The notes under the pieces: generated by a model
Databases searched by the model: none
Told to the model about the DNA's origin: nothing
The model's input: only the letters and a program-made list of their open reading frames with translations
Part shown: positions 1 to 23,901 of the stretch, in pieces
How positions within the stretch are numbered: the stretch's first letter is position 1
How the letters are laid out: every line of letters starts with the position of its first letter
Origin: a virus
Taxonomy: Duplodnaviria; Heunggongvirae; Uroviricota; Caudoviricetes
Reading direction: 5' to 3' (one strand)
IMG/VR virus record: IMGVR_UViG_3300037455_000543
Coordinates: 123,136 to 187,135 of that record
Length of the DNA stretch: 64,000 nucleotides
Position numbers and translations under genes: made by a program

Positions 1-165
1 ACTTATCACGAAGTCAATGAACTTATCCGTAAGGGTGTTCATGGTCCTCATGCTGATAAGATTATCGATATGTATAACAAGAATAAGTTCAAGCTTGAAA
101 TGATTAGAATTCAGCATTTTGATCCTAAGCGTCCAGACTTCTTCTTGGAACATTTTGGTGTATAA
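1..165 (+). CDS. 3' end of a CDS (partial at the window edge), hypothetical protein ...HFDPKRPDFFLEHFGV*
   Basis: Frame 1 is open from base 1 to a TAA at 163-165. No family recognised. Confidence 0.45.
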   Translation, partial: TYHEVNELIRKGVHGPHADKIIDMYNKNKFKLEMIRIQHFDPKRPDFFLEHFGV

Positions 166-174
166 ATAAATTAT

Positions 175-525
175 GGGCTCGCCTGGTTTCGATTGGGTGA
201 TAGAGATATTAGTTGCAAGTCGAGGTCTCAGACGAGGGCACTCGTTAAAAAGTCTGAAAAAGATAAGTGCTAACACTTACGCAATGGCTGCTTAATTTAT
301 CGCAACCCTGGACCTATACCGTTAACCCGTTGGGTATAGAATCCAGTCGCAAAATGGGTTAGGAAATAGTTAAGTCTGTCTATTATTTCCGAAAATCACA
401 GGCTAGTTTATACTGATGCCGACCTTCAGGGCATAGGTATAACGAATTAGTAAATACGAAGGGAAAGCTTGTAGGAACGGATATTGAAGTTATTCAAGAC
501 AGGAGTTCGACTCTCCTCGGGTCCA
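175..525 (+). ncRNA. ssrA: tmRNA (SsrA), one-piece form; encoded tag (A)ANTYAMAA
   Basis: The 5' GGGCUCG pairs with the 3' CGGGUCC (518-524), including a G3:U wobble, followed by discriminator A. A T-arm AGGAG-UUCGACU-CUCCU lies at 501-517. The D-analog CCUGGUUUCGAUUGGG closely matches E. coli CUGGAUUCGACGGG. The tag ORF is GCU AAC ACU UAC GCA AUG GCU GCU UAA (269-295), preceded by a CUCGUUAAAAAGUCUGAAAAAGAUAAGU context parallel to E. coli. Length 351 nt. Confidence 0.85.
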
Positions 526-528
526 TTA

Positions 529-560
529 AAAGGGTTGACATTTGTCACCCTTTTTATTAT
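529..560 (+). terminator. rho-independent terminator after tmRNA
   Basis: Hairpin AGGGTTGACA-TTT-GTCACCCT followed by TTTTTATTAT. Confidence 0.5.
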
Positions 561-570
561 ATTTTATAAT

Positions 571-780
571 ATGAAGATTATATTAACATTACTTACCTCG
601 TTTTTATTTTTTATACTAGGTATGGGAACTATCGTCGGCGCAATGAAGCTGTGTATGCTTGTTACACTTTGCGGATTGCTTAAACTGTTTGTCCAGTTGA
701 CAATCATATTCTTTGCAATTTGCTTTATTGTACTATTATGGATGGCATTCAGCAAATTGGGAGAAATTTTAGAAATTTGA
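571..780 (+). CDS. small hydrophobic membrane protein (69 aa), hypothetical
   Basis: The ATG at 571 lies inside ORF 484..780 and avoids overlap with the tmRNA. The protein is almost entirely hydrophobic, giving 2 predicted TM helices. Confidence 0.35.
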   Translation: MKIILTLLTSFLFFILGMGTIVGAMKLCMLVTLCGLLKLFVQLTIIFFAICFIVLLWMAFSKLGEILEI

Positions 781-781
781 T

Positions 782-1222
782 ATGAGTAGTTTTGGTCCAC
801 ATTTAATTGCAGGTGTATCAGTAGGAACAATCGCTACTGGCATTTTAAGTATACATCAATATCCTGATTGGACGGCATTAACAATGCTACCGTTTATTGG
901 CGGTATTTGTGGTGCATTGACACCCGATATGGATATTAAATCGCATTCCAGTATGTTCATGTATCTTTTATATGTCATCGGTGCATTATATCTGTTCTCT
1001 ACGGGTGAACCTTTTTGGGCATTCCTATTATTGTTATATTCTATTATACCGCAATTCTTTACACATCGAGGGTTTATCCATTCAAGCCTGTTCGGCGTAG
1101 TTTCGACAATCGGCGTATTTGCCGCAACATATTGTAACTTTAACGATTTTGTATTGTGTATCGCTATTGCATGTGGTTATTTCTTTGGTTTCCTATCACA
1201 TATTTTATTGGATGAAGCATGA
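782..1222 (+). CDS. membrane-bound metal-dependent hydrolase-like protein (YdjM/DUF457-like)
   Basis: 146 aa with multiple TM segments. Conserved His/Asp motifs THRGFIHS and SHILLDEA. Confidence 0.45.
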   Translation: MSSFGPHLIAGVSVGTIATGILSIHQYPDWTALTMLPFIGGICGALTPDMDIKSHSSMFMYLLYVIGALYLFSTGEPFWAFLLLLYSIIPQFFTHRGFIHSSLFGVVSTIGVFAATYCNFNDFVLCIAIACGYFFGFLSHILLDEA

Positions 1223-1464
1223 AAACTAATAAACAAGAACGAGAATATCATAAGATTAAAAAAGCAAATCGACAGATACATTATGATAATGTACCTGAAG
1301 AGGAAGCAATTAAAAATTTATCTTATGAAGAATGCATGAAGTTTGGATATATTCAAATGGGAAAACGTCTTCCGTATTATTACGGTAAAGACAAAGAAGC
1401 AGCACGAAAGAAAAGATATTCAAAAAGAAAAGATATTGAAAATGGCTTAAACGAGGAAGTATAA
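1219..1464 (+). CDS. hypothetical protein (81 aa, basic)
   Basis: ORF with an ATGA overlap to the upstream gene. Confidence 0.5.
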   Translation: MKTNKQEREYHKIKKANRQIHYDNVPEEEAIKNLSYEECMKFGYIQMGKRLPYYYGKDKEAARKKRYSKRKDIENGLNEEV

Positions 1465-2039
1465 TGAAAGAAAAAATTGTTAAGCAAGTTGTTGATGTAA
1501 AACATTATATTGCCGATGATGGAAAAGAATTTGAAACATATCATGCATGTAAAGAATATGATGATACTATCTATTATGATAAGTATAAGCCTATTTTTAA
1601 TTTTAAGTGGACTAACGATTGTGAAGATGAATTCCGTATAACCTATAAGTCAAAATACCACAAAGAATTTTTAGCTTTCGTTTCCAAGATGTTAAATGAG
1701 AGTTTACGTGGTTCAGACACCGAAAATGAATGTGATTATAAGGTAGAAAATCTTGAAAATTATTTTAATGAAGAATGTGCTCCATTAGTTGATGGACATG
1801 TGTATAATATAGATACTGCTTATTGTTATGAAAACGATGCCTGGGATAAGCTTATTGTCTGGATTGAAGACGTAAGTGATACTCATATTGTAACTGATAT
1901 GATTCGACATGAATTAATTGAAAATAAAGAATTCCAAAAAATTCTTGAAGATTTTAAACGTAACCATAAGCATATTGATTCTAATAAAGTTATGGATGCA
2001 ATTAGAACATATTATAATGGATTGCAGTTTTTAGACTAA
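1464..2039 (+). CDS. hypothetical protein (191 aa)
   Basis: ORF whose start overlaps the previous stop (TAATG). Confidence 0.55.
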   Translation: MKEKIVKQVVDVKHYIADDGKEFETYHACKEYDDTIYYDKYKPIFNFKWTNDCEDEFRITYKSKYHKEFLAFVSKMLNESLRGSDTENECDYKVENLENYFNEECAPLVDGHVYNIDTAYCYENDAWDKLIVWIEDVSDTHIVTDMIRHELIENKEFQKILEDFKRNHKHIDSNKVMDAIRTYYNGLQFLD

Positions 2040-2049
2040 GGAAACAAAA

Positions 2050-2301
2050 ATGATTAATGAAGAATTATTTAAAATCGTATGTCGTTCATATAATGCAGAT
2101 TGTAAGTTCGACAAGGTTAACAAGCAAGACAAATATCCGACAGTTTATACAGTTATAGACTGTAAGCATGACCGTAGAGCTATGCTTTGTCATCTTGACT
2201 GCGCCGTTATTGCTGTTGACGACGCTGGCAAACAATATCCGATGGTTTATGAAGAACAGCTCGTAAATTTCTTTAAAATTAATTATCAGGCAAAACAATA
2301 A
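2050..2301 (+). CDS. hypothetical Cys-rich protein (83 aa)
   Basis: ORF with 6 Cys. Confidence 0.45.
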   Translation: MINEELFKIVCRSYNADCKFDKVNKQDKYPTVYTVIDCKHDRRAMLCHLDCAVIAVDDAGKQYPMVYEEQLVNFFKINYQAKQ

Positions 2302-2314
2302 AAAATTATTAATT

Positions 2315-2782
2315 ATGGACATAAGCAGTAGAGGAAATTATCCGTCTTGTGCACTGAGTAATTTTGCTGCACATGAATTTGAAATTGATGGTGTTAAATG
2401 TGCATCTATGGAAGGGTTTTTACAAAGTTTAAAATGCCCTACTATCGATATGCAGAAATATATTTGTTCATTGATTGGAATTAAAGCTAAGAAAGCTGGT
2501 TATGGAAGAAACTGGCAAAGACGGCAAATTCTTTATTGGCAAGGTCAACAAATTGGTCGTTCTTCAAAAGCATATCAAGACTTACTCGATCGTGCTTATG
2601 ATGCATTGTATGAAAACCAAGGTTTTAAAGCTGCATTAATCGCCTGTGGAAAAGATGCAGTGTTCACGCATAGTATCGGAAAGAATTGTCAAAATGAAAC
2701 AGTATTGACAGCTCGTGAATTTTGCAGTCGTTTAATGAAATTAAAAGATAGAGCGTTTAAAGAAATAAAGGAAATGAAGTAA
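2315..2782 (+). CDS. NADAR-domain protein (YbiA-like N-glycosidase / ADP-ribose processing)
   Basis: LSNFAAHEFEIDGVKCASMEGFLQSLK aligns to E. coli YbiA FSNFAAWPIKVDGKTWPTSEHYFQAQKF. Downstream, NW..LY.NQGFKAALIACGKDAVFTHS parallels the YbiA C-terminal half. Confidence 0.7.
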   Translation: MDISSRGNYPSCALSNFAAHEFEIDGVKCASMEGFLQSLKCPTIDMQKYICSLIGIKAKKAGYGRNWQRRQILYWQGQQIGRSSKAYQDLLDRAYDALYENQGFKAALIACGKDAVFTHSIGKNCQNETVLTAREFCSRLMKLKDRAFKEIKEMK

Positions 2783-3160
2783 ATGAATCCGTTTAAAATT
2801 ATTTCGAATCTTCGTAATGGTTCAATAACTATTAATGGCAATACAGTTAATTCCAATATTATTGGTAATGGCTGTAGTATCAGTATTGATGGTGATAATA
2901 TTGTTATTAATGGTAACAACATTACTGTAAAGGATAAAGTTATCAATATCAATATTACTGGGGATGTCGATGAAATTACGAATTGTCATGATGTCAAGGT
3001 AAAGGGCAATGTTCGTAAAATTTCTGTTGGATCTGGTGATGTCGAAGTTGATGGCGATGTTTCTGGTGATATTCAGACTGGTTCTGGCGATGTCGATGTT
3101 AGTGGTTCTGTTGGTGGAAATATCAGAACTGGTTCTGGTGATGTAAACGTTGGACGATAA
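2783..3160 (+). CDS. beta-helical repeat protein with SGDV repeats (DUF4097/bactofilin-like)
   Basis: Repeated motifs: GSGDVEVDG, TGSGDVDVSG, TGSGDVNVG and IxGNxxxIxG. Confidence 0.45.
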   Translation: MNPFKIISNLRNGSITINGNTVNSNIIGNGCSISIDGDNIVINGNNITVKDKVININITGDVDEITNCHDVKVKGNVRKISVGSGDVEVDGDVSGDIQTGSGDVDVSGSVGGNIRTGSGDVNVGR

Positions 3161-3184
3161 GGATTGATATTTAATATGGGACAG

Positions 3185-3262
3185 CAGGTCCCCACCTGTT
3201 GAAAATCTTTCTCGGATTTTCTAACCATATTATAAATAATACAAGGTCATGGGGATGACCTT
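3185..3262 (+). promoter_or_regulatory. two hairpins with complementary CCCC/GGGG loops in the leader of the HNH-rtcB operon
   Basis: CAGGT-CCCC-ACCTG (3185-3198) and AAGGTCAT-GGGG-ATGACCTT (3243-3262). A TATAAATA sits between them at 3231-3238. Confidence 0.35.
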
Positions 3263-3292
3263 ATAAAAATAAAGGTAAAATAAGGAGAATAT

Positions 3293-4150
3293 ATGAATTA
3301 TAAACATATATATTTGGAAATTATACGTAAAGCTAAAAATGAACAAATACTTGGTAATAGGCCATTAAACATATATTATAGAAGGCGTAATTTTAAAGAT
3401 GAATATTTTGAATTTCATCATATATTACCAAAATCATTATTTCCAAAATTTGAAAAAGTAAAAAAGAATTTAGTTCCATTAACTGCCAAAGAACATTTTA
3501 TATGTCATAAATTGTTATTTAAAATATATCCATGTAAATCTACAGCATATGCTTTATTAAGGCTATGTCGTAAACGTGATGATATGCATCCAATTAAATT
3601 GTCTGCACGTTCATATGAGCAATTAAGAAAAATATTAGCAAATACTTTATCAGATGCGCAAAAAGGTAAAGAACTTTCGAAAGAAACTAGAATAAAAATT
3701 TCTAATGCACTTAAAGAAGGATATAAATCAGGTAAAATTATACCACCGGCTAAAGATAAACCAGTTACTGCTGAAAAAAGAAAACAAATTTCTGAAACAT
3801 TAAAAGAAAGATATAAAAATGGATATAAAGTATGGAATAAAGATAAAAAGTGTCCAAACTTAGCAAAAAGAAAAGAAGATAGTTGGAATTATGGTAAACA
3901 TTGGTATAATAATGGTGAAATTAGCATATTAACTGAAACATGTCCTGAAGGATTTAAAGAAGGACATATTGTTAAAGTTAATGAGGAAACAGAAGAAAAT
4001 AGAAAAATAAAAATTGCAGAAAATAATAAAGGAAGACATTGGTATAATAATGGTAAAATTAATAAATTTTGCTATGAATGTCCAGAAGGTTTTGTAAAAG
4101 GATTTTTAGATCCAAGGTGGATTAAAAAAGATGATGGAAATACAAGGTAA
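3293..4150 (+). CDS. HNH homing endonuclease
   Basis: YFEFHHILPKSLFP...NLVPLTAKEHFICH (HNH motif). C-terminal repeated HWYNNG..CPEGF modules. Strong AGGAG SD. Confidence 0.75.
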   Translation: MNYKHIYLEIIRKAKNEQILGNRPLNIYYRRRNFKDEYFEFHHILPKSLFPKFEKVKKNLVPLTAKEHFICHKLLFKIYPCKSTAYALLRLCRKRDDMHPIKLSARSYEQLRKILANTLSDAQKGKELSKETRIKISNALKEGYKSGKIIPPAKDKPVTAEKRKQISETLKERYKNGYKVWNKDKKCPNLAKRKEDSWNYGKHWYNNGEISILTETCPEGFKEGHIVKVNEETEENRKIKIAENNKGRHWYNNGKINKFCYECPEGFVKGFLDPRWIKKDDGNTR

Positions 4151-5321
4151 ATATGGTAAAGCAACCGTATATACAGATAATATAGATAGCGCTGCATATG
4201 GGCAAATCTTAAATATGACTTGTCAAATATGGGCAAAAGATTCTAATATTAAAATAATGCCAGATTGTCATTGTGGGAAAGACTGTACAGTAGGTACTAC
4301 AATGCTTATTAAAAACAAGGTTGTTCCTAACCTTGTCGGTGTCGATATTGGTTGTGGAATGCTTGTCGCAAAGCTTAAGGACAAGTTTATCGAATTCGGT
4401 AAACTGGATAAGGTTATTAAGGAAAAGATTCCGTCTGGCAAGGAACATAGAAGTAACCGTCACCGTTATGCTAATGAATTTGATGAACAGTTTGAAGAAC
4501 TTATTGCCGATGTTAAACGAGAAGAACTTCTGAGTATTGCTTCACTTGGCGGAGGCAATCACTTCATTGAATGCGATAAGGATGATGAAGGTGCATTTTA
4601 TATTGTTATTCATTCTGGTTCACGCCATTTGGGTGTTGCTACTTGTGAATACTGGCAAAATCTTGCTATTAAGGACTGTGCTAATTTGACAGCCATTCGT
4701 GGTGCTGAAATTGCAAAGTATAAGAACCAAGGAAAGACTGATGCTGAAATTAAGGAACTCATGAAGGATTATGACCATTTCTCTGTTCCGAAAAATCTTT
4801 CCTATCTTACAGGCGAACATATGCAAGGTTATCTGCATGATATGGCTATTGTTCAGCAGTTTGCAGCTTTAAACCGTGCTGCAATGCTTGATGTAATCGT
4901 AAAGGAAATGGGTTTCAAGGTTGTAGAAAAGTTTGAGACTATTCATAATTATATTGACCTTGATAATATGATTCTTAGAAAAGGTAGTATTTCTGCACAG
5001 GCTGGAGAACGTGTAATTATTCCTATGAATATGAGAGACGGTTCTTTAATTTGTGTCGGTAAGGGAAATCCAGAATGGAATTATTCTGCACCTCATGGTG
5101 CTGGTAGATTGATGACCAGAGCAGATGCTAAGAATTCTATTTCCATGAAGGACTATAAGGAAGCAATGAAGGGAATTTTCACTTCTTGCGTTTCTTCTGC
5201 TACTATCGATGAAAGCCCTATGGCATATAAACCTATGGATGAAATCATTAAGAACATTGAACCTACTTGTGAAATTGAAAAAATTATCAAGCCGGTTTAT
5301 AATTTTAAGGCAGCTTTCTAA
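4131..5321 (+). CDS. rtcB: RtcB RNA-splicing ligase (3'-phosphate/5'-OH RNA ligase)
   Basis: RtcB signature motifs: MPDCHCGKDCTVGT, GVDIGCGM, GGGNHFIE, HSGSRHLG and PHGAGR (the nucleotidyl-His motif). Confidence 0.85.
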   Translation: MMEIQGKYGKATVYTDNIDSAAYGQILNMTCQIWAKDSNIKIMPDCHCGKDCTVGTTMLIKNKVVPNLVGVDIGCGMLVAKLKDKFIEFGKLDKVIKEKIPSGKEHRSNRHRYANEFDEQFEELIADVKREELLSIASLGGGNHFIECDKDDEGAFYIVIHSGSRHLGVATCEYWQNLAIKDCANLTAIRGAEIAKYKNQGKTDAEIKELMKDYDHFSVPKNLSYLTGEHMQGYLHDMAIVQQFAALNRAAMLDVIVKEMGFKVVEKFETIHNYIDLDNMILRKGSISAQAGERVIIPMNMRDGSLICVGKGNPEWNYSAPHGAGRLMTRADAKNSISMKDYKEAMKGIFTSCVSSATIDESPMAYKPMDEIIKNIEPTCEIEKIIKPVYNFKAAF

Positions 5322-5833
5322 TGAAACGTATTTTTCCAATGTATAAAGGTGTTAGCTTAGACAAAGCTGGCATGGGTTATTCTTCTGTCCAATCTGCAAA
5401 GCATTATATGGATGAAAAGCCGATTAGAGAGGATTTTGATAAGTCGTTACCAAAAAATTATTGGTATGAGTTTGAATATGTTCATAAGCATAATGGTCGA
5501 GAAATGAGTGATCATCATATCTGTTCTGTAGCAAATTACACCTTCCACGATACCGACTACGAAGAAGAATTCTATATTAAAGACTTGACTGGTAAAGACA
5601 AGGAACTATGGGATAAAGTCTATGCCATTGAAGACAAATATCGTGAACGTGGTTGGGGTTGGGCTGGCGAAAAGGTCCAAAAAGAAATGAACGCATTGCT
5701 TATTAAATTGGACAAACGTGGCTGGTACCATACATTGTTTGAAGATACAAAGGATTACTGGAAAAAGTATCGTGCTTATAAAAAAGCAAATGTAGAATAT
5801 ATTGAAAAGTCTGTTGAAATAAAGGTAGATTAA
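5321..5833 (+). CDS. hypothetical protein (170 aa)
   Basis: ORF with an ATGA overlap to rtcB. Confidence 0.55.
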   Translation: MKRIFPMYKGVSLDKAGMGYSSVQSAKHYMDEKPIREDFDKSLPKNYWYEFEYVHKHNGREMSDHHICSVANYTFHDTDYEEEFYIKDLTGKDKELWDKVYAIEDKYRERGWGWAGEKVQKEMNALLIKLDKRGWYHTLFEDTKDYWKKYRAYKKANVEYIEKSVEIKVD

Positions 5834-6051
5834 TGGCTGAAGCAGAATTTACAGAAGAAGAAATCGACTTTGCAATGGAAATGATACGCGATTTAATTCC
5901 GTATGATACACCGAATTATGCCAAAAAATTAAGAGAAATGGCAATTGGATGTCTACGAACAGAGCGTGATCCTGATTTTATTGCAATGTGTGAAGAACAT
6001 GACAGAATGCTAGAAAATGGTGAATTGGATGATAATTTAAATTTTGGTTAA
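5833..6051 (+). CDS. hypothetical protein (72 aa, acidic)
   Basis: ORF, translationally coupled. Confidence 0.45.
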   Translation: MAEAEFTEEEIDFAMEMIRDLIPYDTPNYAKKLREMAIGCLRTERDPDFIAMCEEHDRMLENGELDDNLNFG

Positions 6052-6054
6052 TTA

Positions 6055-6306
6055 ATGATTGAAGAAACATACAAATTTAAATGGAAAACATTTGAAGAAG
6101 AAATGCCAGAATCATATAAAATGATTTTGGCTCGTTCTCCTAAAAAACAAATGAACGATATACAGTGGTATTTTTTAACCAGTGATAAGAAACAACTCCA
6201 TCTTCATGATTTAAAATGTGAGTATTATATATCAAGAATTAAGAAATGGCTTTGGTGTTATCCAGAAGATATTGAAAAAATAGAGGAAAATAATGAGTCG
6301 ATTTAA
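6055..6306 (+). CDS. hypothetical protein (83 aa)
   Basis: ORF. Confidence 0.45.
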   Translation: MIEETYKFKWKTFEEEMPESYKMILARSPKKQMNDIQWYFLTSDKKQLHLHDLKCEYYISRIKKWLWCYPEDIEKIEENNESI

Positions 6307-6565
6307 ACGATATTTTGTAAGAAATGATGAAACTGGTTTGATTGAAACTTGGTCAATGCCTTACTGTATTGGTGACGGTCATTATGCTGTAACTATTGAT
6401 GAAATCCTACAAGAAGGTTTTCATGAACATGGTTTTACAAATAAACAGAAAGCCAAAGAATTTATCAAACAAGTAAAAGAGCATTATGAAAATAAATGCC
6501 ATACTAATCCAAAGTTATCTATTATTAAAGCCGAACTGAAGGTAGAATTAACCGAGGTAAATTAA
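6293..6565 (+). CDS. hypothetical protein (90 aa)
   Basis: ORF. Confidence 0.45.
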   Translation: MSRFKRYFVRNDETGLIETWSMPYCIGDGHYAVTIDEILQEGFHEHGFTNKQKAKEFIKQVKEHYENKCHTNPKLSIIKAELKVELTEVN

Positions 6566-6876
6566 TGATTTTCAGTAATCAATTATCAGATTCATTAAAA
6601 TCTCAAATACATGAACTTATTGATTATTTCCTTAATGAAGGAATTGGTTTTGAAATGCGCCATACATACGGTTATAACATGTATGACGAAGAAAGAGATG
6701 ACCAAATTGAAATAAATGCATTTAAGCGACATTTCTATATCGGTATTACAGCTCCTAAATTTTATATGGTTCATAGTTATTTAGGTAAAGGTAATCGTTT
6801 ACAAGAAGATAAATTGGAATTCAAATCGTTCGATGAAATGGTTAAATCGATAAAGGAATCCGACTATGACCGATAA
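6565..6876 (+). CDS. hypothetical protein (103 aa)
   Basis: ORF. Confidence 0.45.
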   Translation: MIFSNQLSDSLKSQIHELIDYFLNEGIGFEMRHTYGYNMYDEERDDQIEINAFKRHFYIGITAPKFYMVHSYLGKGNRLQEDKLEFKSFDEMVKSIKESDYDR

Positions 6877-7051
6877 AGAAAAGATTGCACTACTTGAACA
6901 CCAATTAAACCGATTGCGTTGTTTCATGTGGTTACACAAGACTAATTTCAAAACTAAACGTAAACTGTCTAATATTGAAATATATGACTATTTCGATAAG
7001 AAAGACCCGAAGCGTTTAAATAGAGGGCATAAAAATGGCTAAGAAAAAAGT
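6866..7051 (+). CDS. small ORF (58 aa), hypothetical
   Basis: ATG at 6866 fills an otherwise uncovered gap. Below the track cutoff. Confidence 0.25.
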
Positions 7052-7382
7052 AGAAAGTAAGGCAAGACCGATTATCAATGAAATTCTTGAGAAGGTCAAG
7101 ACTGAAAGAGAGAAGAAAAAGATTACTAAAAAATTATGGATTGACGAATTTCTGTATGGTAGAAATAATCAAGCCGCACTAGGTTTACCAGGTCAATATG
7201 ACGATGAAGAAGGCCGAGAAATCGTTATAGAACCAAATGATGAAGGAACAAATATTTCTCTCGTCCGTTATGTCAATGGTGATCTTTATGGTGGTGTAGA
7301 TGTCAAGACTGTAGATGAAGCACTTAACCAGATTAAATATTTCGCAAAACATGGTAAGCTTGAAGACGAAGACGCATATTAA
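7035..7382 (+). CDS. hypothetical protein (115 aa)
   Basis: ORF. Confidence 0.5.
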   Translation: MAKKKVESKARPIINEILEKVKTEREKKKITKKLWIDEFLYGRNNQAALGLPGQYDDEEGREIVIEPNDEGTNISLVRYVNGDLYGGVDVKTVDEALNQIKYFAKHGKLEDEDAY

Positions 7383-7393
7383 GGAAAATAATT

Positions 7394-7594
7394 ATGGCAC
7401 AAGCAAATGACATACACGAAGAACCAGATGTAGAAATTCTTAAGAAAGGAAAAAAGTTGATATTTATTTGTGATACATGTGAATGTCAATTTCAGGTTTC
7501 TAAGAAATTTGCTAAATATAAACAAACTGGCATGAATGAATATAATTACGCATTTAATTGTCCAGAATGCGGCGAAGAATGTTATTATTATTAA
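7394..7594 (+). CDS. zinc-ribbon protein (CxxC...CxxC)
   Basis: CDTCEC ... CPECGEEC. Confidence 0.45.
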   Translation: MAQANDIHEEPDVEILKKGKKLIFICDTCECQFQVSKKFAKYKQTGMNEYNYAFNCPECGEECYYY

Positions 7595-7606
7595 TGAGGT
7601 ATAAAA

Positions 7607-7813
7607 ATGGAAGAAAAGAAACTGCATAGCTTAATCAATACACTTCTCAAGATTGCTGAGGAATCCGGTAATCCGTCGAAGTATAACCAGGTAATTATCG
7701 ACCTGCTCCAGGCTGACGAATATACAAACGTCAATGTCATGGATCACAAGGGTTATCCGGTTATCGTATTCATTAACAAGGCTGGTGGAATTACCATGCT
7801 TGGCAATGAATAA
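7607..7813 (+). CDS. hypothetical protein (68 aa)
   Basis: ORF. Confidence 0.4.
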   Translation: MEEKKLHSLINTLLKIAEESGNPSKYNQVIIDLLQADEYTNVNVMDHKGYPVIVFINKAGGITMLGNE

Positions 7814-7976
7814 TTGTCATCTTTTGACAAGCAATCGATATAAATAAAACGAATAAAGAATTTACAAGTTTGACCGTGTGTCTCAGCGGCCAAAACCTGG
7901 ATTACAAAACTTGGATTCAGGTTTAACAAATGAGACAAAAAATCGGAACACGTAAGGTTCCAAAGGATAAAATACT

Positions 7977-8417
7977 ATGAACGAATTCTTTAACGTAATT
8001 GACTCTCTTCTTAACCCGTACTGGTTTCAGCAAGGCTTTACTCCAATCGAGAAAACCACGATTTCTGTCCCGGTAAACATTTATCAGGAAGAAGACGGTT
8101 CTGGAACAGTAGAAATCGCCATTCCGGGCAAGACCAAGGATGACGTATCGCTTGAAAAGAAAGTCGTCGACGGCGTAAACTACCTGGTCTTCGATCTCGT
8201 TGAAAAGAACGAAGAAACTACCGAAGAAACCAAGGAAGAAAAAGAACCTAAGCGCAAGGAACTTTTGAAGAAAATCAAGGTTACAAAGCATTGCGAAATC
8301 AAGGTTCCACCGACTCAGGATATCGATAACCTCAAGGCTAAGGTTGAAAATGGCCTCTTGACAATTACCCTTCCTGCTGTCGAAGCAGTAAAGCCTGTCA
8401 AGTTCGAAATCGAATAA
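7977..8417 (+). CDS. small heat-shock protein, Hsp20/alpha-crystallin family
   Basis: VEIAIPG..KDDV ... AKVENGLLTITLP, which is the A.ENGVLTI.LPK consensus. Confidence 0.75.
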   Translation: MNEFFNVIDSLLNPYWFQQGFTPIEKTTISVPVNIYQEEDGSGTVEIAIPGKTKDDVSLEKKVVDGVNYLVFDLVEKNEETTEETKEEKEPKRKELLKKIKVTKHCEIKVPPTQDIDNLKAKVENGLLTITLPAVEAVKPVKFEIE

Positions 8418-8442
8418 AGTTAAAGTAACGTAATAAATAAGT

Positions 8443-8470
8443 GCGGGTCCAAAAAGCCCGCATTATTTTT
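8443..8470 (+). terminator. rho-independent terminator
   Basis: TGCGGG-TCCAAAAAG-CCCGCA followed by TTATTTTT. Confidence 0.5.
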
Positions 8471-8481
8471 CAGAAACTATT

Positions 8482-8769
8482 ATGCAAATTGTAGAAGCTG
8501 AATTAAGACATACTGAAGACTCAAAACCTACCAAGCAGGTCGTCCAGAATAGTCATTCTGACTCCATAAACACGTTCTGGAGGGTTTTTCCGCGATGGGA
8601 TATAAAAACGGATATCTTTGATGAAAAGGTCGATAAAACGCGAATAATCGAGAAATTGGGAGAGAACTTAATCTGTCAATCTACCTTTTCCGGGAAACAT
8701 CATATTACATATTGGAAATACTATAAAACCAAAGAAGAATATGATAAGGATAATATTCAAAATATTTAA
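8482..8769 (+). CDS. hypothetical protein (95 aa)
   Basis: ORF. Confidence 0.45.
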   Translation: MQIVEAELRHTEDSKPTKQVVQNSHSDSINTFWRVFPRWDIKTDIFDEKVDKTRIIEKLGENLICQSTFSGKHHITYWKYYKTKEEYDKDNIQNI

Positions 8770-8797
8770 ACATATTCCCTTTTTCGCAAAAAATTAC

Positions 8798-8805
8798 TAT
8801 ATTTA
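8798..8805 (+). promoter_or_regulatory. Bacteroidetes-type -7 promoter box TATATTTA (TAnnTTTG class)
   Basis: The 19-mer AAAAATTACTATATTTAAT occurs identically at 44201-44219. The ATG lies 5 nt downstream. Confidence 0.4.
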
Positions 8806-8810
8806 ATTTT

Positions 8811-9254
8811 ATGAAAGTTATAAGCTGTGGTGTAATTATTATTGATAAAGAAACACGCAAGATTCTTGCGTGCCATCCGTCATGTCATTCTTATAAACCT
8901 GGAAACTGGGATATTCCGAAAGGCCATGTCGAAAAGGGTGAAACCCATGTGCAGACAGCATTAAGAGAACTGAAGGAAGAAGCTAATATTACCTTGACGC
9001 CTGAAGACCTCTATGACTGCGGATTGTTCCTGTATACCAAATATAAGGATTTGCATCTTTATGTTGCTGAAACAGAAGTCTTTATGCCAATGCTTAGCTG
9101 TTCGACCTACTTTGATTTCGAAGGTAGAAGACCTCTCGAAGTAGATGACTATAGATTGATTGACGACACTAATACTGATATGTATTATAAGAGCCTCAGG
9201 CCATTGGTTACTGACTGTCTCAAAAGATACAAAGAAGAAAAAGGACTTGCATGA
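8811..9254 (+). CDS. NUDIX hydrolase
   Basis: Nudix box GHVEKGETHVQTALRELKEEANI. Confidence 0.7.
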   Translation: MKVISCGVIIIDKETRKILACHPSCHSYKPGNWDIPKGHVEKGETHVQTALRELKEEANITLTPEDLYDCGLFLYTKYKDLHLYVAETEVFMPMLSCSTYFDFEGRRPLEVDDYRLIDDTNTDMYYKSLRPLVTDCLKRYKEEKGLA

Positions 9255-9703
9255 AACTAGAAGACTATGAAGAACTAAAAATCAGGGCTGATAAAGAACT
9301 TAAAATGCCCGATACTATTGAAGAAATTATTAAGCGTAGAAATACCCTTCCAGCAGACGAACAGAAATATACGAAACTTTTAGCAACACAAACTCAGCTC
9401 TGTGCCGACCTAGAAGTAGATCTTGCTGAACTTTATGGTAAGCTATATAAGTGTTATAAGTTTCCCAGAATGAACAAAGAACTTATACAGAAATATGGAT
9501 TAACAATTAATGAAATTTGGGACACTTCTAAAGGCATTGAAAGTCAGATAGACTGCGTTCCAGAATATATTAAACTGAAAAAAGAATTGAATATCCAGAA
9601 AGCAATTAAAGAATTCGTTCAAGATACAAGAAAGAGTATTATTGATTTAGGTTTCGCAATCAAAGATTACCTAGATTATAAACGCGGATTAATGTCCACT
9701 TAA
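9251..9703 (+). CDS. hypothetical protein (150 aa)
   Basis: ORF with an ATGA overlap. Confidence 0.5.
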   Translation: MKLEDYEELKIRADKELKMPDTIEEIIKRRNTLPADEQKYTKLLATQTQLCADLEVDLAELYGKLYKCYKFPRMNKELIQKYGLTINEIWDTSKGIESQIDCVPEYIKLKKELNIQKAIKEFVQDTRKSIIDLGFAIKDYLDYKRGLMST

Positions 9704-9706
9704 AAA

Positions 9707-9736
9707 GAAAACCGGTTATTAAAACCGGTTTTTATT
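9707..9736. terminator. bidirectional terminator between convergent genes
   Basis: GAAAACCGG-TTATTAA-AACCGGTTTT flanked by A and T runs. Confidence 0.5.
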
Positions 9737-9737
9737 T

Positions 9738-12341
9738 TTATGTTACGCCAAATAATGGTCTCCACATCATCTGTGCCCTTGATGGACCATGTTCATATGC
9801 AGGAGTAGGATCATTTATTATATCTTGATATGAACTTACACCACTCTTAACACCTGTACACCCCATAAATGCACTTGCATATCTTGCAGTATTATCATAG
9901 AAATGTGAAGCAACATAATCTAATATCGGACCAATATCAGAAGTTATTGCAGTACAGCCGGCAAACATTCCAGACATGTAGCTAATATCTGTTGCTGATA
10001 AATCTGTTTGTATATCTGTTATTTTAGAACAACCAGAAAACATACAAGTTGCATATTGTAACATAGGAGCAAAAGATTCCCATTTTGTAGGTGGAATCAT
10101 CTTGTCATAATAATTTCCTGTTATACTCTTACAACCCGCAAACATTTCGTTTGCCGCAGTCAAATTTGATAAAGTACCTTTAGGAAATGTTGTTACCTTA
10201 TTACAATTTTTAAACATGGCTGGTCCATATTCAAAACGGGTTAAACCATAAAAATTTGGTAATTCAGTTAATGAAATACAATTTTGGAACATCGATGGTG
10301 CACCTGTAAGTCTGCCCATATTATTAAAACTATCAGGTACTTCTTTTAATGCTGTTGCACCATTAAATAAACTTGGTAATTGTGTTATATTTATACACCA
10401 ACCAAAATTAGCTTTTATTGCTGTTAACGCTGTCAATGGTTCACTACCATTCACATACATTCCAGTAATATTCTTGACCGATTCACCAAGTTGTGTTATT
10501 TCTGTAATATTACTATTAAAATAAACTGGCGTTCCTGTTAAAATATTTGTCGGTAATTGTAATGCCAAATATGAATATTTTTCTGTACTACCATGATTTT
10601 TGTCAAAACCGTCTGAACCATAATATATAGAATTTGCTGGTTTTGTTATAATATATCGTGAATTTGTTTCTACTTCAGGGTCAAATGAATTTATATAATT
10701 TATTGAATCCAATACAGTAGGTATATCATAAGAATTTTCTTCATTTATTTCGAACGTTTTATGTCTCTTACCATATGTATCATATATGTAAGTATAACCG
10801 TCAAATTCCATAAAAAACGGTCCAATTGGCACATAAGTACGTTCTAATTTACCAGAATTATTATTGTTATCCCAGCAAGTATAAATTTTACCTAATTTAT
10901 CATCGAAGAATGCATAAGTTGTATCATTTATTTTTTTGAAATGTGTATCGTCAAATTTATATGCTTTACATTCCCAGTTATATTCATAATGTCTAGGATT
11001 AACACCGACAGTCCTATATTGAGATACTCCTTTCAATCCGATAACAAAATATTTATCAACATTTGTATTATAGTATTGACTTAAATTATTGCCAGAGAAT
11101 AGTAATGCGCCACCATAGTAGTCTGGTATATTATTTTTAGATATCATTGTATAGCCTTGACCACTTACAATAGGCGTAACTGTACTTTGTGCAGTCGGAT
11201 TCATTAAATACTTATTTGCTACTCCGATTGGATAAAATGAAATATTATAACTATAGCCGCCGCCACCGCCAACATCACCAACATAGCATTCTACATTTGT
11301 CCAGTGATAATCACTTACATTATATGAACTAACAGAGTTTTCAACTTTTTTGTATTCAACATCTGCGGTTACTGTTGCTGTCGCATCACCAATATATAGT
11401 TTTCGTAATATACCCGTTACATTAGTTCCGGTATTATTAAATACGAAAAATAAATCATCTCCTGTCAATGTGAGTGGCACATCGCTTAGATCAATATTAC
11501 TTAGTCTTGCAGTAAAGCCAGATGTAAATACTTGTTCAGTCGTATCAAAATGAAGTATACGTTCATCATCATAAAATTCTGGTATTGTAAATTTTTTATC
11601 TAATACATATTGAGTAGAATGTGTTCTTGCAGGATGGTACCTAAAGTCTTCACTTGCATATACCCGGCCAGTAATTGAATATAAATCAGCGTTACCTGAA
11701 AATTTTTCATTATATGCTGTAGCATAGACTTGACCTGTAACCCCTGCAGGACTTTGACCAACCAATCTCCATGTACTGGCATCTACAATAATACTAATAT
11801 CATTATTATTTGCAGAACCCCAAGCATGTCCTATAGCCCATGTGTTATCAGTAAATTGGCAATAATTATAAATACTTTCATTATAAAAATCTGTTTCTAC
11901 ATTCGGAATCGTACTTTCATTTACAACAACTCTATGTGCTGTTGCTGTTGAAAGATAATTAGCAGATTCATTATTTGGAAATTCAGAAAATTCACACCAA
12001 TTTTCTAGGCGGTTAAATTCTTTAAACCAAGCATCACCTGTTAATACACTTTTTAAATCTATAGTTGGACCCCAGCCATTACCGCCACCATCACCGCCTT
12101 GCGAATAACCAGACCGTGCTTGATTTATTCCTATAAAACCTTGAGTATCTTCGTCATATGTTTGATGCTCACCAATAACCAATGCATTAGTACCAGGAAA
12201 AAATACTTTTTCTGTAGTTAACATTGGCTGTAATGACATCGTTGCATTGCCATCAAAACCTTTAGAACTACCGAACATTGCAAATGCGGTAGTTAATGGT
12301 ATTAACTGGGCTGAATTACTGTTATCTTTTTTTATTAACAT
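9738..12341 (-). CDS. tail fibre / receptor-binding protein with C-terminal BspA-type leucine-rich repeats
   Basis: 867 aa. The C-terminal 200 aa carry repeated MF..C..iT... LRR_5-like units (MFQNCISLTELP, MFKNCNKVTTFP, MFAGCKSITG, MFSGCSKITD, MFAGCTAITS). Confidence 0.55.
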   Translation of the reverse strand: MLIKKDNSNSAQLIPLTTAFAMFGSSKGFDGNATMSLQPMLTTEKVFFPGTNALVIGEHQTYDEDTQGFIGINQARSGYSQGGDGGGNGWGPTIDLKSVLTGDAWFKEFNRLENWCEFSEFPNNESANYLSTATAHRVVVNESTIPNVETDFYNESIYNYCQFTDNTWAIGHAWGSANNNDISIIVDASTWRLVGQSPAGVTGQVYATAYNEKFSGNADLYSITGRVYASEDFRYHPARTHSTQYVLDKKFTIPEFYDDERILHFDTTEQVFTSGFTARLSNIDLSDVPLTLTGDDLFFVFNNTGTNVTGILRKLYIGDATATVTADVEYKKVENSVSSYNVSDYHWTNVECYVGDVGGGGGYSYNISFYPIGVANKYLMNPTAQSTVTPIVSGQGYTMISKNNIPDYYGGALLFSGNNLSQYYNTNVDKYFVIGLKGVSQYRTVGVNPRHYEYNWECKAYKFDDTHFKKINDTTYAFFDDKLGKIYTCWDNNNNSGKLERTYVPIGPFFMEFDGYTYIYDTYGKRHKTFEINEENSYDIPTVLDSINYINSFDPEVETNSRYIITKPANSIYYGSDGFDKNHGSTEKYSYLALQLPTNILTGTPVYFNSNITEITQLGESVKNITGMYVNGSEPLTALTAIKANFGWCINITQLPSLFNGATALKEVPDSFNNMGRLTGAPSMFQNCISLTELPNFYGLTRFEYGPAMFKNCNKVTTFPKGTLSNLTAANEMFAGCKSITGNYYDKMIPPTKWESFAPMLQYATCMFSGCSKITDIQTDLSATDISYMSGMFAGCTAITSDIGPILDYVASHFYDNTARYASAFMGCTGVKSGVSSYQDIINDPTPAYEHGPSRAQMMWRPLFGVT

Positions 12342-12348
12342 AAACTAT

Positions 12349-15306: not shown

Positions 15307-15324
15307 ATTATAAAAACCTCTTAT

Positions 15325-15332
15325 TATTTATA
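15325..15332 (-). promoter_or_regulatory. T4-late-like promoter box TATAAATA (minus strand)
   Basis: 22 nt upstream of the ATG at 15306, with an AAGAGG RBS. A terminator hairpin for the upstream gene lies at about 15340-15370. Confidence 0.4.
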
Positions 15333-15396
15333 ACATAAGCGGCATACAAAAAATACCAGATATACTGGTATTTTTGACTAATACTGATATATAATA

Positions 15397-16044
15397 TTAT
15401 TCCTGTGCTTCTGCCGTATAGAAAAATTCTTCTGGCGTTGCATATTCAATAGCATCTGCAGCATCCATCATGGCAATATATTTAGCCATACGTTCTTCTG
15501 TTAAGAACGGGTCCGTTTCCATTGACTGAAGAACCTGCTTAGCTTCGCGGAAAGAACCGGTCTGGACAAGCGAGATTACTGGTGCGAGTTTTACACCAAT
15601 TTCAAGAGGTGTAATTCCCTTAAAATCAGTCTTTACACATTCCTCACGGAATAATGCTATGAACTCATCACCAACTGTCATATTATAATCAATTTCTCCA
15701 GCCAATCCGTCAATAGCAGAAATTCTTGAAGTGTTTGAATTATATTCAGTCGTGAAACGATAAAAGTCAACCACCTTGCCCATAAAGTCCTTTACTTCAT
15801 GTTCATTGAAGTTTTCAAGAACAGCTGGTGCTTCTTTTGTCCAGAAATCTTTATTGTTGTAGACGCATTCACCGTCAACATAAACTACTCGTGAAATGTA
15901 TTTCATATCTATATCCTGTAAAATGTAAAAGTCCTCTTCCTCTTCGCCTAACTCCTGCATGCGAGCTTTTATTAGAGCCAAGCTTGCAGCAGTATGTGCT
16001 ACTTTTTCTGTTTGTTTATTAACTGCGTAAAACTGATTCATCAT
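15397..16044 (-). CDS. hypothetical protein (215 aa)
   Basis: ORF in the structural operon. Confidence 0.5.
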   Translation of the reverse strand: MMNQFYAVNKQTEKVAHTAASLALIKARMQELGEEEEDFYILQDIDMKYISRVVYVDGECVYNNKDFWTKEAPAVLENFNEHEVKDFMGKVVDFYRFTTEYNSNTSRISAIDGLAGEIDYNMTVGDEFIALFREECVKTDFKGITPLEIGVKLAPVISLVQTGSFREAKQVLQSMETDPFLTEERMAKYIAMMDAADAIEYATPEEFFYTAEAQE

Positions 16045-17744: not shown

Positions 17745-17753
17745 AATACCTCA

Positions 17754-19568: not shown

Positions 19569-19881
19569 ATCTGTCTTCTCCTTCTGCTAATGATTTCAAT
19601 AACCATGCTTTTAAATTTTCTAATCCTTTAATATTAATCGTTTCAATAATTTTTATAGCAGACTGAAACATACCGTATTCAATATATGGCAATACACCCA
19701 TATATTCAGCAAAATCAGTGCCATCATAATCATCTAATTGTTTAATGAAATCGTTAATGATTATTCGTCCAATATATTGATTCCACTCCAGTCCGGTTTT
19801 AAAATCAGAGTTTCCATATATTTTTACAAGTTCATCATTTTTGCTTCCAACCATTTGTAATCTATTATAAGTAGGTAACAT
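19561..19881 (-). CDS. hypothetical protein (106 aa), possible fibre assembly factor
   Basis: Small ORF overlapping both neighbours in the fibre operon. Confidence 0.4.
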   Translation of the reverse strand: MLPTYNRLQMVGSKNDELVKIYGNSDFKTGLEWNQYIGRIIINDFIKQLDDYDGTDFAEYMGVLPYIEYGMFQSAIKIIETINIKGLENLKAWLLKSLAEGEDRYE

Positions 19882-19890
19882 AAAAACTCC

Positions 19891-23822: not shown

Positions 23823-23830
23823 TATTTATA
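23823..23830 (-). promoter_or_regulatory. T4-late-like TATAAATA box for the fibre operon
   Basis: Minus-strand TATAAATA 20 nt upstream of the ATG at 23802. Confidence 0.4.
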
Positions 23831-23893
23831 GCTGGCCATACACATTAAAAATCAAATAATTTATAAAATATTTACATTTTTTCTCAATTTTAC

Positions 23894-23901
23894 TATATTT
23901 T
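23894..23901 (+). promoter_or_regulatory. -7 box TATATTTT (TAnnTTTG class)
   Basis: TTACTATATTTT lies 7 nt before the ATG at 23909. Confidence 0.35.

What the first reader, a model, noticed from the sequence alone, without database searches (positions are those of the whole stretch)
175..525. Phage-encoded tmRNA with a non-canonical tag (A)ANTYAMAA
A complete one-piece tmRNA sits at the head of a block of phage accessory genes. There is no integrase and no att-like duplicate of its 3' end in the window, so it looks phage-borne rather than a host ssrA flanking a prophage. Its tRNA-like features are intact: the G3:U70 alanine identity pair, the T-arm and a D-analog closely matching E. coli. It has its own terminator. 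The tag ends in AMAA rather than the usual ALAA. A phage tmRNA could rescue ribosomes stalled on mRNAs cleaved by host abortive-infection RNases, or redirect tagging.
Basis: partly seen in the sequence, partly recalled or inferred. Interest (0 to 1): 0.7.

Follow-up and report, generated by a model that had tools for sequence, protein, structure and literature searches.

The report
Phage-encoded tmRNA with AMAA tag
A complete ribosome-rescue RNA (tmRNA) is carried by an uncultured T4-like gut/rumen phage and kept intact by selection; this confirms the observation, but phages with their own tmRNA are already well known.

Summary
ARAGORN and the Rfam model RF00023 (139.5 bits, E 1.5e-54, full length) both call a one-piece tmRNA at 175-525 (+) with tag (A)ANTYAMAA. 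It has a G3:U70 acceptor stem, a T-arm, four pseudoknots and the U-5/A-4 frame-setting bases.

The window is a distant T4-like myovirus (gp15, T4-type TerL, gp32, UvsX, UvsW, gp30.3, NrdD, RtcB). It has no integrase, no SmpB and no repeat of the tmRNA 3' end.

I found 19 copies (14 distinct sequences), all on phage-like metagenomic contigs and all with the same tag. Ten base pairs change by compensation. Only two synonymous changes fall in the tag frame. The RNA is therefore under selection inside the phage lineage.

It is also dispensable. Six related contigs lack it, and one shows a clean ~370-nt indel. It lies between an NAD+ salvage cluster and RtcB.

Phage tmRNAs are documented (mycobacteriophage Bxz1, phage G, huge phages, about 2% of sequenced phages). 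This is a new member of a known kind. The invariant Met-for-Leu tag is the only unusual feature, and its meaning is untested.

The parts
1..165 (+). 3' end of a NadE-like NAD synthetase gene, the last gene of an NAD+ salvage cluster seen in relatives
   Evidence: Frame-1 ORF ending in TAA at 163-165. The full-length homologue L001:9285-10031 hits phrog_11189 NAD synthetase at 2.3e-39. PF02540 is recorded on the L018 copy, with isochorismatase, PurA and NAPRTase upstream.
161..168 (+). TATAAATA motif (T4 late-promoter-like) ending 6 nt before tmRNA G1
   Evidence: There are 25 copies in the window against 13.5 +/- 3.8 expected. Fifteen of the 25 lie in the 7.7% of the window that is intergenic, mostly 4-30 nt upstream of starts. 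This copy is not conserved in relatives, so a promoter role is inferred only.
175..525 (+). One-piece tmRNA gene (351 nt, 43% GC against 34% for the window)
   Evidence: ARAGORN. Rfam RF00023 at 139.5 bits, E 1.5e-54. Composition.
175..181 (+). Acceptor stem 5' strand GGGCUCG, pairing with 518-524 and including G177:U522 (G3:U70)
   Evidence: Direct reading. All 7 pairs are invariant in 14 distinct sequences.
182..192 (+). D-loop analogue CCUGGUUUCGA (SmpB-contact region in known tmRNAs)
   Evidence: Aligned to the model consensus cuGGaUUCGA. Coordinates.
221..257 (+). Pseudoknot 1
   Evidence: The P3 stem CGAG/CUCG has two pairs with fully compensatory changes. P4 is invariant.
264..265 (+). 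U-5 and A-4 upstream of the resume codon (equivalent to E. coli U85/A86, which set the frame)
   Evidence...GAUAAGU|GCU in this window and ...AAUAAUU|GCU in the variant group. The role of A86 is described in PMC2481249.
269..295 (+). Tag reading frame GCU AAC ACU UAC GCA AUG GCU GCU UAA = ANTYAMAA*
   Evidence: The peptide is identical in all 19 copies. Only 2 of the 27 columns vary, and both are synonymous third positions.
308..360 (+). Pseudoknot 2
   Evidence: The second stem AACCC/GGGUU has two pairs with compensatory changes (A:U to G:C in 7 sequences, C:G to U:A in 2).
362..404 (+). Pseudoknot 3 (hairpin 362-390; loop AGUCUG pairs with CAGGCU at 399-404)
   Evidence: Complementary and invariant in 14 sequences.
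407..462 (+). Pseudoknot 4 (hairpin 407-442; loop CCUUC pairs with GAAGG at 458-462)
   Evidence: Two compensatory pairs in the hairpin. The second stem is invariant.
501..517 (+). T-arm AGGAG-UUCGACU-CUCCU
   Evidence: Three of its 5 pairs change on both sides across the family (AGGAG/CUCCU to UUGGG/CCCAA).
525..528 (+). Discriminator A525, then TTA where CCA would be (CCA not encoded)
   Evidence: The same in all 14 distinct sequences.
528..570 (+). Hairpin with U-run (528-554) overlapping sigma70-like promoters (TTGACA-17-TATATT at 535-563; TTGTCA-17-TATAAT at 542-570) for the next gene
   Evidence: Fold -12.4 kcal/mol, z = -3.6. Promoter scan gives 11 of 12 matches. The same GGGTTGACA-N17-TATATT element lies upstream of the tmRNA in L002, L006, L007, L009 and L018.
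571..1222 (+). Two small membrane-protein genes downstream (a 69-aa hydrophobic ORF at 571-780; a YdjM-like ORF at 782-1222)
   Evidence: Translation read directly. PF04307 YdjM.
3293..5321 (+). HNH homing endonuclease (3293-4150) and RtcB RNA ligase (4131-5321) in the same + strand accessory block
   Evidence: phrog_655 at 4.1e-36 and phrog_1075 at 1e-129. PF01139 RtcB at 2.9e-57.

Best explanation
This is a functional ssrA (tmRNA) gene carried as an accessory gene by a large, lytic, distantly T4-like phage of an uncultured gut or rumen bacterium.

Inferred mechanism, from established tmRNA biology:
- The RNA is transcribed either with the upstream nadE-like gene or from its own promoter.
- RNase P trims the 5' end. 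The 3' end is trimmed after A525, and a CCA-adding enzyme supplies the CCA.
- Host AlaRS charges it with alanine through the G3:U70 pair.
- With host SmpB and EF-Tu it enters ribosomes stalled on broken or stop-less mRNAs.
- Translation resumes at GCU269. The tag AANTYAMAA is added, the ribosome is released at UAA, and the product is marked for ClpXP/Lon-type proteolysis.

The likely benefit is extra ribosome-rescue capacity during infection. At that stage mRNAs and tRNAs are being cut, both by the phage's own host shut-off and by host RNA-targeting defences. This fits its position between an NAD+ salvage cluster and the RNA-repair ligase RtcB.

Shown here: identity, integrity, phage location, selection on the fold and the tag, and dispensability. 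Inferred: expression, charging, use of host SmpB, and the benefit.
For: - Identity.
- Phage context: T4-type gp15, TerL, gp32, UvsX, UvsW, gp30.3, NrdD and DnaB. UvsX is only about 27% identical to cultured T4-like phages.
- No integrase and no 3'-end repeat.
- Nineteen copies (14 distinct) on phage-like contigs of up to 136-411 kb, always in the same neighbourhood.
- Selection on the fold: 10 of 98 pairs show changes on both sides. Shuffles give 5.5 +/- 1.0 (0 of 500 reach 10), and slid controls give 0-1. 98.5% of cells are paired.
- Selection on the tag: 84 of 356 columns vary, but only 2 of 27 in the tag frame do, and both are synonymous.
- U-5/A-4 is conserved.
- The tmRNA is 98% identical between loci whose flanking nadE is only about 73% identical.
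- Precedents: PMC4131195, PMC7162821, PMC9004378.
- RtcB's most frequent bacterial substrate is reported to be SsrA (cited in PMC11090510).
Against: - No SmpB gene in the 64-kb window, so function must depend on host SmpB or on a gene elsewhere in the genome.
- No expression, charging or tagging data.
- Six related contigs lack the gene, so it is not essential.
- The host is unknown, so the phage tag cannot be compared with the host tag.
- The effect of Met in place of Leu on protease recognition is untested.
- The covariation rests on 14 closely related sequences that fall into a few clades.
- The structure tested was filtered for pairs that form in the window sequence. This inflates the percent-paired figure, though not the compensatory-change count.
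Confidence: 0.72

Rival explanations
1. The modified degron changes what happens to tagged proteins. The phage tmRNA competes with the host tmRNA, and its invariant ...YAMAA tag is recognised differently from the host's tag. It could be degraded more slowly or faster, use a different protease or adaptor, or evade a host sensor. The phage would then control the fate of truncated proteins during infection.
For: The Met is invariant in all 19 copies while 24% of columns vary. No paper in the library pairs 'YAMAA' with tmRNA in a relevant way. The G of the AUG codon pairs in helix 5, but a UUG Leu codon would keep that pair, so RNA structure does not force Met.
Against: Met is a conservative substitute for Leu, and tags are diverse in nature (710 unique tags by 2014, PMC4131195). 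The whole family may simply have inherited Met from one founder. The host tag is unknown. There are no biochemical data.
Confidence: 0.1
2. The RNA is a decoy or inhibitor of host trans-translation. It would titrate SmpB or occupy stalled ribosomes unproductively, as reported for the TLD-only tmRNA of mycobacteriophage DS6A.
For: Precedent in PMC4131195 and PMC11915505. No phage SmpB in the window.
Against: The RNA is full length. It has a conserved tag frame, only synonymous changes in that frame, conserved U-5/A-4 and four maintained pseudoknots. A pure SmpB sponge would need none of these.
Confidence: 0.07
3. The gene is a passenger cassette with no function. It would have been captured from a bacterium and spread through a recombination hot spot downstream of nadE that homing endonucleases also occupy.
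For: - Presence/absence polymorphism with a clean ~370-nt indel.
- GIY-YIG endonucleases occupy the same site in L012, L015, L016 and L018.
- A sharp identity breakpoint 6 nt before G1 in L018.
Against: Compensatory substitutions in five helices and a frozen tag peptide show purifying selection after divergence. The tmRNA is far better conserved than its flanks.
Confidence: 0.06
4. It is a host ssrA gene beside an integrated prophage. This is the refutation scenario named by the first reader.
For: ssrA is a common integration site (PMC11915505). The gene lies at the very edge of the window, so its upstream side is seen only through relatives.
Against: - No integrase and no repeat of the 3' end.
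- Upstream in the near-identical L018 are phage-type auxiliary genes and a homing endonuclease.
- The same gene sits in the interior of viral contigs of 136-148 kb.
- Related phages have the same neighbourhood without it.
- No bacterial chromosome in 185,579 species genomes carries this tag. The only real hits are two phage-like contigs in archaeal MAGs.
Confidence: 0.02

Closest known systems
tmRNAs of Cluster C mycobacteriophages (Bxz1, Cali, Catera, Rizal, ScottMcG, Spud, ET08), phage Wildcat and Bacillus phage G (PMC4131195)
   Same: Complete one-piece tmRNA in phage genomes rather than at a prophage junction. The Cluster C members and phage G are large, tRNA-rich phages. RtcB homologues are also common in mycobacteriophages (221 records).
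   Different: There is no detectable nucleotide similarity to any of 50,697 deposited phage records. The host lineage is different and uncultured, from gut or rumen. The tag ends in AMAA. CCA is not encoded.
tmRNA (with SmpB) in metagenomic huge phages (Al-Shayeb et al. 2020, PMC7162821)
   Same: Uncultured, large phage genomes carrying translation-related genes including tmRNA. Related contigs here reach 136-411 kb, and one carries a tRNA cluster.
   Different: No SmpB is seen in this 64-kb window. The phage is T4-like rather than a member of a named huge-phage clade. Here the selection on the RNA is shown by covariation.
Two-piece tmRNA of T4-like marine myophages (Melnitz and pelagimyophages; PMC9004378)
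   Same: Lytic T4-like myovirus with no integrase. The tmRNA is common in the clade but not universal (17 of 47 relatives there; absent in 6 relatives here).
   Different: Those are circularly permuted two-piece forms, and in Melnitz the gene carries a glutamine riboswitch. This one is a standard one-piece form with no riboswitch.
Bacterial ssrA (Rfam RF00023, standard form), e.g. the E. coli tag ANDENYALAA
   Same: Same architecture: G3:U70 acceptor stem, T-arm, four pseudoknots, GCN resume codon 4 nt after a conserved A, and a tag of the form ...Y-A-hydrophobic-A-A.
   Different: It is phage-borne. The first four bases are GGGC rather than the usual GGGG. The tag is short at 8 codons (10 aa is the most frequent length, PMC11915505), with Met where Leu is usual.

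Membership tests
tmRNA, standard one-piece form (Rfam RF00023) | Covariance-model score above the curated gathering threshold over the full model | tested here: met
   139.5 bits against a threshold of 47, E 1.5e-54, model 1-374 of 374. The relatives score 132-138 bits.
tmRNA, standard one-piece form (Rfam RF00023) | 7-bp acceptor stem with G3:U70 and discriminator A (alanine identity) | tested here: met
   175-181 pairs with 518-524, including G177:U522, followed by A525. It is invariant in 14 sequences.
tmRNA, standard one-piece form (Rfam RF00023) | T-arm and D-loop analogue forming the tRNA-like domain | tested here: met
   The T-arm at 501-517 has three compensatory pairs. The D-analogue at 182-192 aligns to the model.
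tmRNA, standard one-piece form (Rfam RF00023) | Tag reading frame starting at a GCN resume codon, with the frame-setting A four nt upstream, ending in hydrophobic residues and a stop | tested here: met
   GCU269 to UAA295 encodes ANTYAMAA. U264 and A265 are at -5 and -4. The peptide is invariant, with synonymous changes only.
tmRNA, standard one-piece form (Rfam RF00023) | Pseudoknots PK1-PK4 around the tag frame | tested here: met
   PK1, PK2 and the PK4 hairpin are supported by compensatory changes. PK3 and the PK4 second stem are complementary but invariant.
tmRNA, standard one-piece form (Rfam RF00023) | Encoded 3' CCA | tested here: not met
   TTA follows A525 in all copies. This feature does not define the family; the database authors note that the position is 'not always encoding CCA' (PMC11915505).
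tmRNA, standard one-piece form (Rfam RF00023) | Alanylation, SmpB binding and trans-translation activity | not testable with these tools
   No SmpB family was reported among 69 window ORFs. The activity needs experiments.
Phage-encoded (not prophage-junction) tmRNA | Lies within a phage genome with hallmark phage genes and recurs in related phages | tested here: met
   T4-type structural and replication genes share the window. Nineteen copies sit on viral-type contigs in the same neighbourhood.
Prophage integrated at host ssrA (attL/attR) | Adjacent integrase, and a direct repeat of the ssrA 3' end at the far end of the element | tested here: not met
   No integrase or recombinase family was found (upstream region). 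The 3' end occurs once, even with 3 mismatches allowed. Only 64 kb plus about 9 kb of upstream sequence from a relative could be examined.
TLD-only tmRNA mimic (mycobacteriophage DS6A type) | tRNA-like domain only, with no tag frame or pseudoknots | tested here: not met
   The RNA is full length at 351 nt, with a tag frame and four pseudoknots.

The most novel reading that the evidence does not exclude
The phage tmRNA is a dedicated counter-defence component. It would be part of an island (NAD+ salvage, tmRNA, RtcB) that keeps translation running under RNA-cleaving and NAD-depleting abortive-infection systems. Its invariant Met-containing degron would be an adaptation that routes rescued products differently from host-tagged ones.
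Probability: 0.1. Interest if true: 0.65.

Novelty: new member of a known kind. Interest (0 to 1): 0.3.

Why it matters
The finding adds a well-supported case to the existing picture that large phages carry parts of the translation-rescue machinery. The gene is selected, yet dispensable. It comes from an uncultured T4-like gut/rumen lineage with no cultured relatives.

Two practical points follow:
- tmRNA genes reported in archaeal metagenome-assembled genomes can come from misbinned phage contigs, not only from misbinned bacteria. Two Methanobrevibacter species representatives carry this phage.
- The invariant AANTYAMAA tag is a specific peptide signature. It could be searched for in rumen metaproteomes to show phage-directed tagging in situ.

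The finding does not change what is known about how tmRNA works.

Tried and rejected
- **Deposited phages and plasmids.** Megablast of 1-12000 and blastn of the tmRNA against 50,697 phage records gave no match. Blastn against 72,556 plasmids gave no match. No cultured relative or plasmid donor was found.
- **Bacterial donor or host.** The tag-pattern scan of 185,579 species genomes returned only two phage-like contigs inside Methanobrevibacter MAGs and one chance hit without a tmRNA.
- **Metagenome scan.** The scan with the 5' tRNA-like-domain pattern found only the same family, plus two chance hits (L020, L031) and truncated copies. No member with a different tag turned up.
- **Archaeal host (rejected).** I considered this because of the MAG labels. 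Against it: the trans-translation RNA is under selection, the GGGTTGACA-N17-TATATT promoters are conserved, and the phage is T4-like.
- **Bacteroidetes host (rejected).** SD use in 44 of 67 genes argues against it.
- **Sigma70-like promoters.** They are not enriched across 1-20000 as a whole (115 against 103 +/- 11.5). Only the specific conserved element counts as evidence.
- **RNAalifold consensus.** It mis-folded the long-range P2 helix, so I used the Rfam-derived structure instead.
- **Literature and supplements.** Searches for AMAA or ANTYAMAA tags found nothing relevant.
- **Own terminator.** The hairpin exists, but the consensus scan does not call it and it is absent in L001, L003 and L007.

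Full report
**1. The observation.** ARAGORN reports a single tRNA-like gene in the 64-kb window: a tmRNA at 175-525 (+) with tag ANTYAMAA* encoded at 269-295. The Rfam covariance model RF00023 matches 175-528 over its whole length at 139.5 bits (gathering score 47, E 1.5e-54). The following can be read directly from the sequence:
- The acceptor stem is GGGCUCG (175-181) paired with CGGGUCC (518-524), including G177:U522, the G3:U70 alanine identity pair. The discriminator is A525.
- The T-arm is AGGAG-UUCGACU-CUCCU at 501-517.
- The D-loop analogue is CCUGGUUUCGA at 182-192.
- The resume codon GCU269 is preceded by ...GAUAAGU. That places U at -5 and A at -4, equivalent to E. coli U85/A86. A86 is the main frame-setting base (PMC2481249).
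- Four pseudoknots can be placed at 221-257, 308-360, 362-404 and 407-462.
- CCA is not encoded; TTA follows A525.

**2. The 3' hairpin.** A hairpin at 528-554 followed by a U-run folds at -12.4 kcal/mol (z = -3.6). Its stem has a bulge, so the consensus terminator scan missed it. The hairpin contains TTGACA/TTGTCA boxes that sit 17 nt upstream of TATATT/TATAAT, the best sigma70-like matches in the region. It therefore doubles as the promoter region of the next gene.

**3. The window is a phage.**
- PHROG and Pfam scans give T4 gp15 tail-sheath stabiliser, T4-type large terminase, gp32, UvsX with the T4 UvsX C-terminal domain, UvsW, gp30.3, DnaB-like helicase, NrdD with its activase, dUTPase, homing endonucleases and RtcB.
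- UvsX is only about 27% identical to cultured T4-like phages. No deposited phage matches at the DNA level.
- Among 69 ORFs, no integrase, recombinase or SmpB family was reported.
- The tmRNA 3' end occurs once, even with three mismatches allowed.

**4. The family.** Pattern scans found the same RNA on six IMG/VR viral contigs (up to 136 and 411 kb) and ten metagenome contigs (one copy truncated). It also occurs on one ENA contig that is 99.5% identical to window 169-5445, and on two contigs of 173 and 191 kb filed in goat-gut 'Methanobrevibacter' MAGs. In total there are 19 complete copies and 14 distinct sequences, 88-99% identical to the window copy. All encode ANTYAMAA.

**5. Selection.** I tested the Rfam-derived structure, with the pseudoknot second stems added, on the 14 distinct sequences.
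- 98.5% of cells are paired.
- Ten of the 98 pairs change on both sides. Shuffles give 5.5 +/- 1.0, and none of 500 reaches 10. Versions with the partner slid by 1-3 columns give 0-1 (the six-sequence version is).
- The compensatory changes fall in the T-arm (three pairs), the PK1 P3 stem (two), PK2 (three) and PK4 (two).
- 84 of 356 alignment columns vary, but only 2 of the 27 tag-frame columns do. Both are synonymous third positions (AAC/AAU, ACU/ACA).
- The RNA is about 98% identical between loci whose adjacent nadE-like gene is only about 73% identical.

Two caveats apply. The sequences fall into a few clades. Pairs not formed in the window sequence were dropped from the tested structure, which inflates the percent-paired figure but not the compensatory count.

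**6. Neighbourhood and dispensability.**
- The gene follows an NadE-like NAD synthetase (phrog_11189).
- In the near-identical contig L018 the upstream genes are isochorismatase (PncA-like), adenylosuccinate synthetase, NAPRTase, NAD synthase and a GIY-YIG homing endonuclease.
- Downstream in the window are small membrane proteins, gp30.3, an HNH endonuclease and RtcB (4131-5321).
- Six related viral contigs with the NadE homologue (72-78% identity) have no tmRNA within 4 kb.
- L014 has the same flanking genes as L001 but only 11 nt between them, where L001 has the 350-nt tmRNA plus 33 nt of spacer. This is a clean indel.
- GIY-YIG endonucleases of different lengths occupy the same site in L012, L015, L016 and L018.

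The site is therefore a recombination hot spot, and the tmRNA is an accessory gene.

**7. Expression signals differ among relatives.**
- In L002, L006, L007, L009 and L018 a conserved GGGTTGACA-N17-TATATT element lies just upstream of the tmRNA.
- In the window, L001 and L003-L005 the RNA starts 8-9 nt after the nadE stop codon, so it is probably co-transcribed and cut out by RNase P.
- In the window only, a TATAAATA motif (161-168) ends 6 nt before G1. The motif is over-represented (25 against 13.5 +/- 3.8), and 15 of its 25 copies fall in the 7.7% of the window that is intergenic, upstream of genes. That distribution matches T4-type late promoters. Any promoter role for this copy is inferred.

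**8. Host.**
- SD-like motifs precede 44 of 67 genes, against about 8% at random positions.
- Together with the TTGACA/TATATT promoters, this argues against Bacteroidetes. From general knowledge, that phylum rarely uses SD sequences and has a different promoter consensus.
- RtcB is closest (about 50% identity) to Bacillus phage homologues. This is a weak hint towards Firmicutes.
- The Methanobrevibacter labels are best explained by misbinning. The 2025 tmRNA database paper proposes the same explanation for tmRNAs found in archaeal MAGs (PMC11915505).
- An RNA that works only on bacterial ribosomes and is under selection implies a bacterial host.

**9. Mechanism.**
- The best-supported reading is an ordinary trans-translation RNA that supplements the host's own copy during infection. 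It would use host AlaRS, SmpB and EF-Tu, plus a CCA-adding enzyme.
- Its placement between NAD+ salvage genes and RtcB fits a role in keeping translation going when RNA is being damaged. RtcB's most frequent bacterial substrate is reported to be SsrA (cited in PMC11090510). This link rests on gene neighbourhood only.
- Four rivals are less likely, for the reasons given under each: a changed degron, an SmpB decoy of the DS6A type, a functionless passenger, and a host gene at a prophage junction.

**10. Comparison and novelty.**
- Phage tmRNAs have been catalogued in mycobacteriophages (Bxz1 group) and Bacillus phage G (PMC4131195).
- They are also found in huge phages together with SmpB (PMC7162821), and in 402 of 18,146 phage genomes, including T4-like marine myophages (PMC9004378). 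The 2025 database holds 79 phage entries (PMC11915505).
- This is a new lineage of a known kind.
- The one distinctive trait is the invariant Met in ...YAMAA. I could not place it against natural tag diversity with the tools available.

Interest is modest.

Noticed in passing
window 41626-41731 (+); also L003 1157-1260 (-), L005 8142-8245 (+), L024 5290-5393 (+), L027 2444-2547 (-): A full-length match to the orphan Rfam motif cow-rumen-2 RNA (RF02947; 99.3 bits against gathering 66). It lies in a 435-nt divergent intergenic region of this T4-like phage. In related phages it recurs about 3 kb from the tmRNA. The motif of unknown function is therefore phage-borne, at least in part.
   Followed up: partly
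L007 (JAFRFB010000097.1, 173 kb) and L009 (JAFQXD010000042.1, 191 kb): Two GTDB species-representative 'Methanobrevibacter sp.' goat-gut MAGs contain large contigs carrying this phage's tmRNA and its neighbouring gene. They are probably misbinned phage DNA. This would explain some of the 'archaeal tmRNAs' reported in PMC11915505.
   Followed up: partly
L018 1502-7609 (upstream of the tmRNA in a contig 99.5% identical to window 169-5445): A phage cluster of isochorismatase (PncA-like), adenylosuccinate synthetase, NAPRTase (PncB-like) and NAD synthase (NadE). It looks like a Preiss-Handler-type NAD+ salvage module, which could counter NAD-depleting defences.
   Followed up: no
L012 4897-6114, L015 4893-6356, L016 2843-4054, L018 7761-8600: GIY-YIG/NUMOD homing endonucleases of different lengths (279-487 aa) occupy the site just downstream of nadE, with or without the tmRNA. 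The site is a mosaic hot spot. In L018 the identity breakpoint lies 6 nt before tmRNA G1.
   Followed up: partly
window, e.g. 15325-15332 (-), 23823-23830 (-), 41043-41050 (-), 41827-41834 (+), 55851-55858 (+), 62249-62256 (-): TATAAATA, the T4 late-promoter consensus, is enriched (25 against 13.5 expected). It is concentrated in intergenic DNA 4-30 nt upstream of starts, including structural genes. This suggests T4-type late transcription, with some very short leaders.
   Followed up: partly
window 8795-8804, 23891-23900, 40251-40260 (-), 42370-42379, 44207-44216, 48097-48106, 53565-53574: A second conserved motif, T(A/T)CTATATTT, lies 5-11 nt upstream of ATG codons that mostly lack an SD sequence. 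It may be a phage promoter class giving leaderless or near-leaderless mRNAs.
   Followed up: no
window 62325-63245 (+) and 63336-63734 (+): The T4-type large terminase ORF is only 306 aa, and only N-terminal ATPase-domain families matched it. A separate ORF follows, so the gene may be split by an intron, an intein or an endonuclease insertion near the end of the window.
   Followed up: no
L024 11934-12669: A related phage contig carries a cluster of at least five or six tRNA genes (Gln-CTG, Arg-TCT, Arg-CCT, Gln-TTG, Lys-TTT) about 9 kb downstream of its tmRNA. The 64-kb window has no tRNA genes.
   Followed up: no
L021 (LXOW01358302.1), 5' end of the locus as held: The truncated tmRNA copy ends in CTGTCTCTTATACACATCT, which I recognise from memory as a Nextera adapter sequence. 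The public metagenome contig appears to carry untrimmed adapter.
   Followed up: no
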